A stretch of 64,000 bases of DNA, taken from assembly GCA_000004985.1 (NCBI GenBank), contig GG738855.1; one strand, given 5' to 3'. Source of the stretch: Naegleria gruberi. Lineage: Eukaryota. The notes below the pieces were generated by a model that saw only the letters and a list, made by a program, of their open reading frames with translations, was not told the origin of the DNA and ran no database searches. The position numbers and the translations under genes were made by a program. Of this stretch, positions 6,928-8,500 are shown piece by piece. Each line of letters starts with the position of its first letter. The stretch's first letter is position 1.

Positions 6928-8500
6928 ATGAGTACACAGCCCAATCATCAGCTGCCACTCCTCCTCGACAATGATCATCATCACTCTATCAATAGTGGTG
7001 GTGGCGGAAATAGTGGTGGCAATGTGAGTATGGGTAATATTATTGGTGGTGTTGGTAATAATAATTTGGGATTTGGATCACTACAACCCTTTGAAGTACC
7101 CGATGCTTTCGGAATGGTTGAGGATGGAATTTATAGAAGCTCGGTTCCTAAAGCTGAAAAACAATTTCAATATTTAAAAACATTGAATTTAAAAACTATA
7201 TTATTTCTCTCTCAGGAAATTATATTGAAATCATTTACATCGTTTTTAGAGGAGGAGAAAATTGATTTAATAGAATTAGGATTATTGATTTCTAATAGAA
7301 CATTGAGTGGAGGATTGAAAATGTCATCCAATTTGAGATCGGATCAACCTTTATCACATTCTGCCTCTTCAAGCTCATTCGGAGGTATGTTATATCAGAT
7401 TACTTTGATTATTCTATAATATGCGAATATTACAATGATTAGATATGTCACCTCACTCTCCTAATGGATCTAGTCCTAAACCAAGCCTCTTTTCACCTTC
7501 ATCAAATTCTTCACTTTCAACTACCACAACTGTAGTCAATACTACATCGAATCAAACAAATACATCATCATCAACACCCTATCCAAGTCTTGCAAATAAT
7601 ACAGTCTCTCCAATTCCTCCTGCTTTACAAATTATTAATAATATTTCACTCTCTAATATTTCTTCTTCAAAAGGATTGGGATTTACCGATGAAATTTATA
7701 ATACTAAACATTGTACAGATGATCTCATAAAGGAAGCTCTGGAGATTTTAATGGACAAATCATATCATCCCATTATGGTAGTTTGCTCCTCTGGAATTCA
7801 TTTAACAGGAACTCTCATTGGATGTCTGAGAAAGTTACAGGACTGGTCACTGACCTCAATTTTTACTGAATATGAATGTTTTGCTGGAAATAATTCTCGC
7901 CACATTGATCAACAATTTATAGAAATGTTTGATACAGACCTTGTCACTCTACCTACAGAGTCATCAGGTAATTTACCTCAATGGTTTGTGGAGCACAAGA
8001 AAATGAAAAGAGAAGAGGAACGAGAATTTGAGGAAATGATGAAATATCTCGCAATGAGGAAGAACAAAACAATACCATTACCACCACCACCTCACCCAAC
8101 CAATGAATCCACAACTACCCACTCAACCACAACAACTGCTACAACAGGTCATCACAGAACTGGAAGTATTGTAATTTCGCACCATATTCACAGCAATGAT
8201 CATCATTTATCAGCTTTACCAACTAGTCATCATTTCCCAAGTGCAACACTTGCCCGACCTCATTCACCAAATAGACGGTTAAGCAATGGTTTGATTAACA
8301 ATATTAGGAAATCAAACTCTAATGAGAGTATTCACCTTCATCAACAACCACACACTGATGCAATCCTTTCTGAAAATACTGAATTGTCACCGTTCAAATT
8401 TACCTATCAACGATACATGATGGATAAACATTGTCCACTCATTAGTGAAAAATCCAACTATTCAACTTCAAGTATTGTAGAGCAGGATGAAGATGATTAG
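6928..8500 (+). CDS. PFA-DSP/Siw14(OCA)-family tyrosine-phosphatase-like protein in two exons, with a degenerate P-loop. Likely a pseudo-phosphatase.
   Basis: Exon 1 is 6928..7384 and exon 2 is 7443..8500, joined over a 58-nt GTATGT..AG intron. Exon 1 encodes FEVPDAFGMVEDGIYRSSVPKAEKQFQYLKTLNLKTILFLS. Exon 2 encodes IMVVCSSGIHLTGTLIGCLRKLQDWSLTSIFTEYECFAG, which matches the [18 protein letters not shown] region of PFA-DSPs but with K, R, K, R replaced (CSSGIHL instead of CKRGKHR). It has a G/N-rich N-terminus and a S/T/H-rich C-terminus. Confidence 0.6.
7385..7442 (+). other. Intron (58 nt) of the PFA-DSP-like gene
   Basis: GGAG|GTATGT donor at 7385 and ..TTAG| acceptor at 7442. Splicing joins two ORFs in different frames (phase 1) and restores a continuous phosphatase domain. 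Confidence 0.55.

What the first reader, a model, noticed from the sequence alone, without database searches (positions are those of the whole stretch)
6928..8500. A PFA-DSP/Siw14-type phosphatase paralogue has lost the P-loop arginine and lysines and is a probable pseudo-phosphatase
After splicing a 58-nt intron, the protein aligns with plant/fungal atypical dual-specificity phosphatases (Siw14/OCA family; 5-PP-inositol-pyrophosphate phosphatases). The catalytic loop reads VCSSGIHLTG instead of [10 protein letters not shown]. The nucleophilic Cys is kept, but the invariant Arg of CX5R and the flanking Lys/Arg that bind the pyrophosphate are replaced by Ser, Ile and Leu. The protein has also gained a G/N-rich N-terminus and a long S/T/H-rich C-terminus. 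This resembles inactive OCA-family members that act as scaffolds or regulators, and it could be a substrate-trapping or regulatory partner of an active PFA-DSP elsewhere in the genome.
Basis: partly seen in the sequence, partly recalled or inferred. Interest (0 to 1): 0.55.

Follow-up and report, generated by a model that had tools for sequence, protein, structure and literature searches.

The report
Arginine-less OCA-type pseudophosphatase gene in Naegleria
This Naegleria gruberi gene encodes a phosphatase-like protein that keeps the fold and the catalytic cysteine but lacks the arginine and lysines needed to bind phosphate. It is an ordinary member of an ancient, widespread "OCA" branch of probably inactive relatives of the Siw14/PFA-DSP inositol-pyrophosphate phosphatases, not a recent Naegleria-specific loss.

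Summary
Splicing the 58-nt intron (7385..7442) gives a 504-aa protein. It matches Pfam PF03162 (E 1.8e-40), AtPFA-DSP1 and Siw14. Its P-loop VCSSGIHLTG aligns column for column with [10 protein letters not shown].

1. The loss is not a local event. The same Arg-less loop occurs in orthologues from N. lovaniensis, Willaertia and Acrasis. It also occurs in oomycetes, early-diverging fungi, Acanthamoeba, a foraminifer, a labyrinthulid and a cryptophyte. These form a 136-taxon clade with no CX5R member (69% bootstrap).

3. The domain is strongly acidic (pI 4.7, charge −10, against about +5 for canonical enzymes). Trapping of inositol pyrophosphate is therefore unlikely.

4. The public N. gruberi model appears to splice out the insert wrongly.

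The gene is under purifying selection. OCA-clade pseudophosphatases in protists are already described, so this is a new member of a known kind. I could not test whether Naegleria has an active partner.

The parts
6928..7384 (+). Exon 1 (aa 1-152 plus the first base of codon 153). It holds the non-conserved G/N-rich N-terminus, the first half of the phosphatase-like domain and the start of the insert.
   Evidence: ORF listing and translation. The public partial model starts at Met35, so the true start (6928 or 7030) is uncertain.
7385..7442 (+). 58-nt phase-1 intron, GTATGT…GATTAG
   Evidence: It carries stop codons in all three frames, and its removal joins the two ORFs in frame. N. lovaniensis has a 178-nt intron at a nearby position, while W. 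magna has none and reads through as one ORF. There is no transcript evidence.
7443..8500 (+). Exon 2 (aa 153-504 plus the stop codon)
7099..7284 (+). Domain half 1 (aa 58-119, PDAFGMVEDGIYRS…IDLIELGL). It aligns to AtPFA-DSP1 residues 56-116.
   Evidence: Pfam and PDB alignments. AF2 pLDDT is 90-98 in the N. lovaniensis orthologue.
7294..7705 (+). S/N/T/P-rich insert of 118 aa (aa 123-240, interrupted by the intron). It sits where canonical enzymes have the 10-residue WPD-loop equivalent (At 117-126).
   Evidence: Gap in the alignments. Composition S32 N13 T13 P11. The coding frame is open in only 26 of 20000 shuffles. W. magna carries a longer insert inside one uninterrupted ORF. AF2 pLDDT is 39-51 in N. 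lovaniensis. The end of the insert, DEIYNT (followed by KHCTD at the start of domain half 2), is conserved among Naegleria species.
7706..8020 (+). Domain half 2 plus the C-terminal helix (aa 241-345, KHCTDDLIKEAL … FDTDLVTLP…LPQWFVEHKKMKREEEREFEEMMKYL)
   Evidence: AF2 pLDDT is 96-98. dN 0.077 against saturated dS versus N. lovaniensis.
7778..7810 (+). Degenerate P-loop VVCSSGIHLTG (aa 265-275). The Cys267 codon is at 7784..7786.
   Evidence: Aligned to [11 protein letters not shown]. Identical or near-identical in N. lovaniensis, a probable N. fowleri relative, Willaertia and Acrasis.
7889..7909 (+). Equivalent of the α5-α6 (Q-) loop, NNSRHID (aa 302-308). K186 becomes N; R188 and D191 are kept.
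   Evidence: Mapping of the AtPFA-DSP1 residues named in PMC9038691 onto the alignment.
8021..8401 (+). T/H/S/P-rich disordered tail (aa 346-472) with small conserved islands (HHRTGSI, NSNESIH)
   Evidence: Composition, alignment, and pLDDT below 50 in the orthologue.
8402..8497 (+). Conserved C-terminal motif PFKFTYQRYMMDKHCPLISEKSNYSTSSIVEQDEDD-COOH
   Evidence: Conserved in all heterolobosean orthologues. The motif is found in 43 of 138 Arg-less and 20 of 41 Asp-type members, but in 0 of 52 Oca1-like and 0 of 17 canonical proteins. pLDDT rises to 67-76 inside an otherwise disordered tail.

Best explanation
The locus is the Naegleria gruberi orthologue of an ancient Arg-less branch of the OCA clade. 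The OCA clade is the predicted-pseudophosphatase sister group of the Siw14/PFA-DSP inositol-pyrophosphate phosphatases.

Shown here:
- It has a PFA-DSP fold.
- It lacks every cationic residue that binds the phosphate groups in AtPFA-DSP1: K151, R152, K154, R156, K186 and the WPD-loop N119/K120.
- The WPD-loop position is occupied by a disordered insert.
- The domain is strongly acidic.
- The sequence is under purifying selection.

Inferred:
- It cannot bind or hydrolyse 5-InsP7 in the canonical way. It works without catalysis, as a protein-interaction subunit.
- By analogy with the yeast OCA proteins, which interact with one another and give a common phenotype, the acidic DSP-fold domain would pair with another family member or another partner.
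- The disordered insert and tail, and the conserved acidic C-terminal motif, would serve as regulated docking elements.
For: Identity and fold:
- Pfam PF03162, E 1.8e-40.
- PDB sequence hits to AtPFA-DSP1 and Siw14.
- The AF2 model of the compact Acrasis orthologue has pLDDT 87 overall and about 97 in the domain. Its best Foldseek matches are AtPFA-DSP1 (E 7e-15, TM 0.83-0.90) and Siw14.

Loss of ligand residues:
- Alignment, residue roles from PMC9038691, column counts.
- Domain block pI 4.7 and charge −9.9, against a canonical median pI of 9.1 and charge +5.1.

Ancient clade:
- The profile search of 1.84 billion representatives gave 476 hits at E ≤ 1e-30. Most of the top 150 have loops of the type C[ST][ST]G[IV]H[EQLF]T.
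- Named members come from oomycetes, Glomeromycota, Mucoromycota, chytrids, Acanthamoeba, Nonionella, Hondaea, Baffinella and Acrasis.
- In the NJ tree the window protein lies inside a 136-taxon split with no CX5R member, supported by 138 of 200 bootstraps.

Selection:
- dN/dS is about 0.12 for domain half 1 and about 0.02 for domain half 2 against N. lovaniensis.
- The loop is conserved from Naegleria to Acrasis.

OCA background:
- Review PMC13573052: the OCA clade has fungal, protist and bryophyte members, its proteins interact, and their roles are undefined.
- PMC8421204: physical interactions and shared genetic profiles of the yeast OCA genes.
Against: - No biochemical data exist for any member of the Arg-less branch.
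- The nucleophilic Cys is invariant (138/138), and His (107/138) and Thr (105/138) are highly conserved in that class. That is more than a pure scaffold would seem to need.
- No partner was identified. Whether Naegleria has a canonical PFA-DSP or an Oca1-type protein is unknown.
- The yeast analogy rests on distant relatives, and orthology to a particular yeast Oca protein was not tested.
- The bootstrap for the Arg-less clade is only moderate (69%).
- The splice junction has no transcript support here.
Confidence: 0.6

Rival explanations
1. The protein still uses its cysteine. Either it is a redox-sensing thiol switch, or it is an enzyme with a different, less anionic substrate, rather than a dead scaffold. 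The P-loop backbone, the helix dipole, His272, Thr274 and Arg305 would keep Cys267 as a reactive thiolate. Oxidation or covalent modification would then change how it interacts with partners.
For: - In the Arg-less class, Cys is 138/138, Gly 138/138, His 107/138, Thr 105/138 and the R188 equivalent 121/138.
- In AtPFA-DSP1, His155, Thr157, Arg188 and Asp191 act on the nucleophile and water side of the reaction.
- OCA1 was named for oxidant-induced cell-cycle arrest, and the catalytic Cys of PFA-DSPs is reversibly oxidised.
- Some proteins predicted to be 'pseudophosphatases' do retain activity (PMC13216928).
Against: - To my knowledge no Cys-based PTP-fold enzyme works without the CX5R arginine.
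- A nested sub-branch replaces Cys with Asp (41 sequences). So the thiol is dispensable in close relatives.
- The Cys92 equivalent, which is the back-door disulfide partner in AtPFA-DSP1, is not Cys here.
Confidence: 0.2
2. The protein is a substrate trap that binds 5-InsP7 without hydrolysing it.
For: It retains the Cys, the P-loop backbone geometry (pLDDT about 98) and His272.
Against: - All side chains that contact the 1-, 4-, 5β- and 6-phosphates in AtPFA-DSP1 (K151, R152, K154, R156, K186) are neutral here.
- The WPD-loop equivalent is replaced by a 118-aa insert.
- The domain net charge is about −10.
Confidence: 0.03
3. The public gene model is right. The S/N/T-rich segment (7307..7718) is an intron, and the protein is a compact domain without an insert.
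For: - The NCBI/JGI partial model P0011 joins …LISNRTL to NDLIKEAL….
- GT at 7307 and AG at 7718 are in frame.
- Most family members have a short loop at this position.
Against: - The frame across the segment is open in only 26 of 20000 shuffles.
- The donor GTGGAG is weaker than GTATGT.
- W. magna has both domain halves and a longer insert in one uninterrupted 500-codon ORF. The N. lovaniensis model keeps the insert and has only a 178-nt intron.
- DEIYNTKHCTD, which lies inside the supposed intron, is conserved at the protein level in three Naegleria sequences.
Confidence: 0.08
4. The gene is a recently degenerated, decaying paralogue (a pseudogene in the making) specific to Naegleria.
For: Long low-complexity regions and a non-conserved N-terminus.
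Against: - dN/dS is well below 1.
- The same loop is conserved in Willaertia, Acrasis and far beyond.
- The extreme C-terminus carries a conserved motif.
Confidence: 0.02

Closest known systems
OCA clade of the PFA-DSP family (S. cerevisiae Oca1/2/4/6; Marchantia MpPFA-DSP2-4), predicted pseudophosphatases
   Same: - It has the PF03162 DSP fold with substitutions in the HCxxGxHR loop.
- It sits outside the canonical branch.
- The domain is acidic.
- It carries the C-terminal extension …FDTDLVxLP…PxW shared with Oca1-like proteins.
- By loop pattern the closest yeast member is Oca6: HCTNGELI keeps Cys, has small polar residues at 151/152 and an aliphatic residue at the Arg position.
   Different: - Orthology to a given yeast Oca protein was not tested, because no yeast OCA sequence was available.
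- The Naegleria protein keeps His155, which Oca6 does not.
- It has a 118-aa insert at the WPD-loop position, a 127-aa disordered tail and a C-terminal acidic motif.
- Heterolobosea are not among the lineages listed for this family in the review.
Canonical PFA-DSP 5-β-phosphatases (ScSiw14, AtPFA-DSP1-5, MpPFA-DSP1)
   Same: - Same fold: Foldseek E about 1e-14, TM 0.83-0.90 for the Acrasis orthologue.
- About 50% identity across the second half of the domain.
- Cys150, Gly153, His155, Thr157, Arg188 and Asp191 equivalents are present, as is the GCLRKLQxW helix.
   Different: - H149 becomes V, K151 becomes S, R152 becomes S, K154 becomes I, R156 becomes L and K186 becomes N.
- The WPD-loop equivalent is replaced.
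- Domain pI is 4.7 against about 9.
Oca1-type proteins (compact, about 166 aa, loop MCNLGRHRT; annotated 'required for protection against superoxide stress')
   Same: They are the sister group in the NJ tree. They share TGT[VL]IGCLRKLQxW[SN]LTSI and FDTDLV…P.W, and also have an acidic domain.
   Different: Oca1-type proteins keep CX5R and K186, have no insert or tail, and never carry the C-terminal motif (0 of 52).
Metazoan pseudophosphatases such as STYX and the inactive myotubularin-related proteins (MTMRs)
   Same: This is a functional analogy only. A PTP-fold protein with a disabled P-loop acts through binding, often to an active relative.
   Different: It is a different subfamily. STYX loses the Cys, whereas here the Cys is kept and the Arg and other basic residues are lost.

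Membership tests
PFA-DSP family in the broad sense (Pfam PF03162, Y_phosphatase2) | Significant match to the family profile over the whole domain | tested here: met
   E 1.8e-40 and 138.7 bits against a cutoff of 27. The two stretches cover both halves of the 165-position profile (the second stretch spans profile positions 71-152).
PFA-DSP family in the broad sense (Pfam PF03162, Y_phosphatase2) | Atypical DSP fold closest to AtPFA-DSP1 and Siw14 | tested here: met
Acrasis model: pLDDT 87. Foldseek top hits are 7mom/7mol/1xri and 6byf; the next family, DUSP23, is 8 orders of magnitude weaker. N. lovaniensis domain pLDDT is 90-98.
Canonical PFA-DSP inositol-pyrophosphate 5-β-phosphatases (Siw14 / AtPFA-DSP1) | P-loop signature HCxxGxHR (CX5R arginine present) | tested here: not met
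   VCSSGIHL: Cys, Gly and His are present; the leading His and the Arg are absent.
Canonical PFA-DSP inositol-pyrophosphate 5-β-phosphatases (Siw14 / AtPFA-DSP1) | Cationic substrate-binding residues (K151, R152, K154, K186; WPD-loop N119/K120) and a basic catalytic domain | tested here: not met
   The equivalents are S, S, I and N, and the WPD-loop position holds a 118-aa insert. Domain pI is 4.7 and charge −9.9, against a canonical median of pI 9.1 and +5.1.
Canonical PFA-DSP inositol-pyrophosphate 5-β-phosphatases (Siw14 / AtPFA-DSP1) | Hydrolysis of the 5-β-phosphate of 5-InsP7 / 1,5-InsP8 | not testable with these tools
   Needs recombinant protein.
OCA clade (predicted pseudophosphatases related to PFA-DSP) | PFA-DSP fold with substitutions or deletions of critical active-site residues | tested here: met
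   Definition taken from PMC13573052.
OCA clade (predicted pseudophosphatases related to PFA-DSP) | Phylogenetic position outside the canonical PFA-DSP branch, together with Oca1-type proteins | tested here: met
   NJ tree of 183 non-redundant sequences over 161 columns, rooted on the canonical sequences. The Arg-less clade (136 taxa) lies next to the group that holds all Oca1-like sequences. Bootstrap for a split of at least 100 Arg-less taxa is 138/200. The canonical set is monophyletic in only 49/200 replicates, so the deep branching is soft.
OCA clade (predicted pseudophosphatases related to PFA-DSP) | Orthology to a named yeast member (Oca1, Oca2, Oca4 or Oca6) | not tested
   No S. cerevisiae OCA sequence turned up in any search. 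Only the loop motifs quoted in the review could be compared. Oca6 (HCTNGELI) has the most similar pattern.
OCA clade (predicted pseudophosphatases related to PFA-DSP) | Physical association with other OCA/Siw14 proteins, and lack of phosphatase activity | not testable with these tools
   Known only for yeast proteins.
STYX-type pseudophosphatases | Loss of the nucleophilic cysteine with the arginine retained | tested here: not met
   The pattern here is the opposite: Cys267 is kept and the Arg is lost.

The most novel reading that the evidence does not exclude
The Arg-less branch is not a collection of dead enzymes. It would be a distinct protein family dating from about the last eukaryotic common ancestor. 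It has a constrained Cys-Gly-His-Thr loop, and many members carry a private C-terminal module: an aromatic cluster, then PL[IV]S, then S[IL][IV], ending in a poly-Asp/Glu carboxy terminus. On this reading it has its own activity or sensing function, for example as a redox- or ligand-gated thiol switch. The acidic tail might act as a pseudo-substrate that plugs the basic pocket of an active PFA-DSP. As far as I could find, neither the motif nor the breadth of this branch is described in the papers I could search.
Probability: 0.15. Interest if true: 0.6.

Novelty: new member of a known kind. Interest (0 to 1): 0.3.

Why it matters
Inositol pyrophosphates control phosphate and energy signalling, and the Siw14/PFA-DSP enzymes remove them. 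The related OCA proteins give strong phenotypes in yeast and in fungal pathogens, yet they have no known mechanism.

This locus adds Heterolobosea to the lineages that carry them. It also corrects a public gene model. Through comparison, it shows that one OCA sub-branch is very old, has an invariant cysteine without the arginine, and often ends in a conserved acidic motif.

That gives experimenters concrete handles: Cys267, the C-terminal motif and the acidic surface. These could be used to test what OCA pseudophosphatases do. For Naegleria itself the gene is an ordinary conserved family member.

Tried and rejected
I used the orthologues P0013 and P0001 instead. No coordinates or PAE are returned, so I could not see where the C-terminal motif docks.
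- The Foldseek search against afdb50, which might have named yeast OCA proteins or N. gruberi paralogues, was unavailable.
- Looking up the public model P0011 in the contig index found nothing.
- The search for a canonical CKRGKHR or Oca1-type paralogue of Naegleria gave nothing usable. None lies in the 64-kb window (tblastn) and none appeared. Those searches use word-based candidate lists and truncated output; even missed P0001 and P0003. So this is not evidence of absence.
- Literature searches for Naegleria together with PFA-DSP, Siw14, IP6K or PPIP5K found nothing relevant. The founding phylogeny paper (PMID 21409566) is not held.
- Synteny gave nothing. The N. gruberi, N. lovaniensis and W. 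magna loci have different neighbours.
- A Biopython bootstrap timed out and was replaced by a numpy NJ.
- Rejected ideas: two separate proteins from the two ORFs (half-domains cannot fold, and W. magna has one ORF); a pseudogene (dN/dS); an alternative exon that restores CX5R.
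Full report
**What is in the sequence**

The window is AT-rich eukaryotic DNA (33.8% GC). An ORF starts at the ATG at 6928 and runs to 7419. A second ORF, in another frame, runs from 7445 to 8500. Removing 7385..7442 (58 nt, GTATGT…GATTAG, with stops in all three frames) joins them into one 504-codon reading frame. 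Reading through the intron ends in stop codons.

The spliced protein matches Pfam PF03162 (Y_phosphatase2) with E 1.8e-40, in two stretches: aa 58-119 and aa 240-321. By phmmer it matches the solved structures of AtPFA-DSP1 (E about 1e-27) and yeast Siw14 (E 2.6e-25). In the printed alignment, HPIMVVCSSGIHLTGTLIGCLRKLQDW lies without gaps under [27 protein letters not shown]. The nucleophilic Cys is kept (Cys267, window 7784..7786). H149 becomes V, K151 becomes S, R152 becomes S, K154 becomes I and R156 becomes L (numbering of AtPFA-DSP1; coordinates).

**Organism and gene model**

The domain is 100% identical, over the shared segments, to an NCBI entry 'predicted protein, partial [Naegleria gruberi]' (P0011, 167 aa). 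It splices 7307..7718 (412 nt, GTGGAG…TACAG), removing the whole region between the two domain halves, and it lacks both termini.

- The frame across that region is open in only 26 of 20000 composition-preserving shuffles.
- The Willaertia magna orthologue is a single uninterrupted 500-codon ORF. It contains both domain halves and an even longer insert.
- The N. lovaniensis orthologue keeps the insert and has only one 178-nt intron, shortly after the first domain half.
- The end of the region (DEIYNTKHCTD) is conserved at the protein level among three Naegleria sequences.

None of the 18 in-frame GT..AG alternatives touches the P-loop, and the public model also reads VVCSSGIHLTG. No exon structure restores CX5R. 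Transcript evidence was not available.

**Anatomy**

- aa 1-52: G/N-rich and not conserved. N. lovaniensis starts 12 aa before the domain, so the true start may be Met1 or Met35.
- aa 53-122: domain half 1.
- aa 123-240: S/N/T/P-rich insert, predicted disordered (pLDDT 39-51 in the N. lovaniensis model).
- aa 241-345: domain half 2 plus a long helix.
- aa 346-472: T/H/S/P-rich disordered tail.
- aa 473-504: a conserved C-terminal motif.

The insert sits exactly where AtPFA-DSP1 has its 10-residue WPD-loop equivalent (At 117-126). That loop is one of the three substrate-binding loops, and it contributes N119 and K120.

**How disabled is the active site?**

The structural paper on AtPFA-DSP1 (PMC9038691) names the residues involved. 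K151, R152, K154, H155, R156 and K186 contact the phosphates of 5-InsP7. N119 and K120 deliver the substrate. H155, T157, R188 and D191 act on the nucleophile and water side.

Here every cationic ligand residue is neutral (S, S, I, L and N, with the WPD loop replaced). Cys, Gly, His272, Thr274, Arg305 and Asp308 are kept. The trimmed domain block has pI 4.7 and net charge −9.9. Canonical members in the same alignment have a median pI of 9.1 and a charge of +5.1. Binding of a highly anionic inositol pyrophosphate in the canonical pocket is thus very unlikely. That argues against the 'substrate trap' suggestion.

**Not a local loss**

Orthologues keep the same loop:
- N. lovaniensis: VVCSSGIHLTG.
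- A second Naegleria-like assembly: VVCSSGIHLTG.
- W. magna: VVCSSGVHLTG.
- Acrasis kona: IVCTSGLHLTG.

Against N. lovaniensis, dN/dS is about 0.12 for domain half 1 and about 0.02 for domain half 2, with dS saturated. The gene is therefore under purifying selection.

A profile of ten such sequences, searched against 1.84 billion representative proteins, found 3654 relatives, 476 of them at E ≤ 1e-30. Most of the best 150 carry C[ST][ST]G[IV]H[E/Q/L/F]T loops. Named members come from oomycetes (Phytophthora, Peronospora and others), Glomeromycota, Mucoromycota and chytrid fungi, Acanthamoeba castellanii, the foraminifer Nonionella, the labyrinthulid Hondaea, the cryptophyte Baffinella and Heterolobosea. 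A nested variant with Asp in place of Cys is found in red algae.

Among 276 collected sequences I counted 142 'Cys, no Arg', 41 'Asp-type', 52 Oca1-like (xCxxGRHR) and 17 canonical.

In a neighbour-joining tree (183 non-redundant sequences, 161 columns), the window protein sits in a small heterolobosean-like group. That group lies inside a 136-taxon split that contains no CX5R protein. A split of at least 100 Arg-less taxa around it is recovered in 138 of 200 bootstraps. All Oca1-like sequences lie in the next group out. The arginine was therefore lost once, early in eukaryote evolution, and not in Naegleria.

**Fold**

The tool would not accept the spliced window protein. The compact Acrasis orthologue (251 aa, 102-sequence alignment) gave pLDDT 87 and pTM 0.82, with the domain at about 97. 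Foldseek places it next to AtPFA-DSP1 (E 7e-15, TM 0.83-0.90) and Siw14 (E about 1e-12). The next family, DUSP23, comes at 3e-6. The N. lovaniensis full-length model shows two confident domain halves (pLDDT 90-98). They are separated and followed by regions below 50, with a bump to about 67 and a short helix at the C-terminal motif.

**The C-terminal motif**

The last 32 residues (…FTYQRYMMDKHCPLISEKSNYSTSSIVEQDEDD) are conserved in all heterolobosean orthologues. A generalised pattern recurs at the extreme C-terminus of oomycete, foraminiferal and many unnamed members. It consists of an aromatic cluster, then PL[IVT]S, then S[IL][IV], then three to five Asp/Glu at the carboxy terminus. One example is YQKYFFYLQGPLVSPSVKFSEKKSIIGDDDDD.

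It is present in 43 of 138 Arg-less proteins. A variant (…YYYS…PLNS…PRIQTL) is present in 20 of 41 Asp-type proteins. It is absent from all 52 Oca1-like and all 17 canonical proteins. I found no description of it in the papers I could search. Its function is unknown. No coordinates were returned, so I could not see whether it packs on the domain.

**Comparison with what is known**

A 2026 review (PMC13573052) describes an OCA clade as sister to the PFA-DSP clade. It has fungal, protist and bryophyte members that carry substitutions or deletions in HCxxGxHR:
- ScOca1: CCGMGRHR.
- ScOca2: HSNKGKHR.
- ScOca4: loop deleted.
- ScOca6: HCTNGELI.

According to that review, Oca1 is inactive on generic substrates, the proteins interact with each other, and their roles are undefined. 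Yeast genetics treats them as one 'OCA complex' with a shared phenotype (PMC8421204).

The Naegleria protein meets the definition of this clade. By loop pattern it most resembles Oca6, but I had no yeast OCA sequences and could not test orthology. Heterolobosea are not in the review's list of lineages. That is a minor extension.

**Most likely mechanism**

Shown:
- a PFA-DSP fold;
- loss of all phosphate-binding cationic side chains;
- an acidic surface;
- a replaced WPD loop;
- disordered regions with a conserved terminal motif;
- purifying selection and ancient origin.

Inferred:
- The protein does not turn over or trap inositol pyrophosphates. It acts by binding proteins, as proposed for other OCA members.
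- Its acidic domain is electrostatically complementary to the basic canonical enzymes, which fits heteromer formation. No partner was identified.
- The invariance of Cys, Gly, His and Thr leaves room for a thiol-based sensing or catalytic role. I rate that at about 0.2.

**Limits**

- There is no transcript evidence for the splice junction.
- There was no access to the rest of the genome. The absence of a second family member in my searches is not informative, since even missed known orthologues.
- The tree is distance-based, with moderate support.
- There are no biochemical data for any Arg-less member.

**Verdict**

This is a new member of a known kind, of modest interest. The clade-specific C-terminal motif and the invariant cysteine are the only parts that might repay further work.

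Noticed in passing
window 7307..7718 (and both termini, 6928..7029 and 7960..8500): The public N. gruberi protein model (P0011, 'predicted protein, partial', 167 aa) splices out the whole S/N/T-rich insert using a weak GTGGAG donor, and it lacks both the N- and C-terminal parts. Comparative evidence indicates the insert and the C-terminal 185 aa are coding, so the public model is probably wrong or incomplete.
   Followed up: yes
window 8402..8497: There is a conserved extreme C-terminal motif: an aromatic cluster, then PL[IV]S, then S[IL][IV], ending in poly-D/E at the carboxy terminus. It is shared with oomycete, foraminiferal and many unnamed Arg-less family members. It is absent from all Oca1-like and canonical PFA-DSPs examined. 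Red-algal Asp-type members carry a variant ending …PLNS…PRIQTL. Its function is unknown.
   Followed up: partly
window about 8137..8160 (aa 404-411, HHRTGSIV) and about 8267..8287 (aa 447-453, NSNESIH): These are small conserved islands inside the otherwise unalignable disordered tail. H[HTK]R[ST][GS]S is shared with other Naegleria sequences and with Willaertia; it has an R-x-x-S pattern and is a possible basophilic-kinase site. NSN[ED][SN]IH is shared among Naegleria sequences only.
   Followed up: no
L001 6311..6488 (N. lovaniensis) versus window 7385..7442; L002 6001..7503 (W. magna): The single intron of this gene differs between species. It is 58 nt in N. gruberi. It is 178 nt, and about 24 alignment positions further upstream, in N. 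lovaniensis. It is absent in W. magna. This could be intron sliding, indels in low-complexity sequence, or independent gain or loss.
   Followed up: partly
window 4157..6820 (+) and 8535..9779 (−): The neighbours are an 887-aa AAA ATPase (PF00004) ending 107 nt upstream of the start codon, and a class I Tyr/Trp-type aminoacyl-tRNA synthetase (PF00579) on the opposite strand. The synthetase's stop codon lies only about 35 nt from this gene's stop. The packing is very compact. The neighbours are not shared with the N. lovaniensis or W. magna loci.
   Followed up: partly
related proteins P0177, P0190, P0199, P0048, P0270 and others (no window coordinates): A nested sub-branch has Asp in place of the nucleophilic Cys, often preceded by Cys (…VCD[VT][GS]G[VI]H.V…). 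The named members are mainly from red algae. It shows that the thiol is dispensable in close relatives of the Arg-less proteins.
   Followed up: partly
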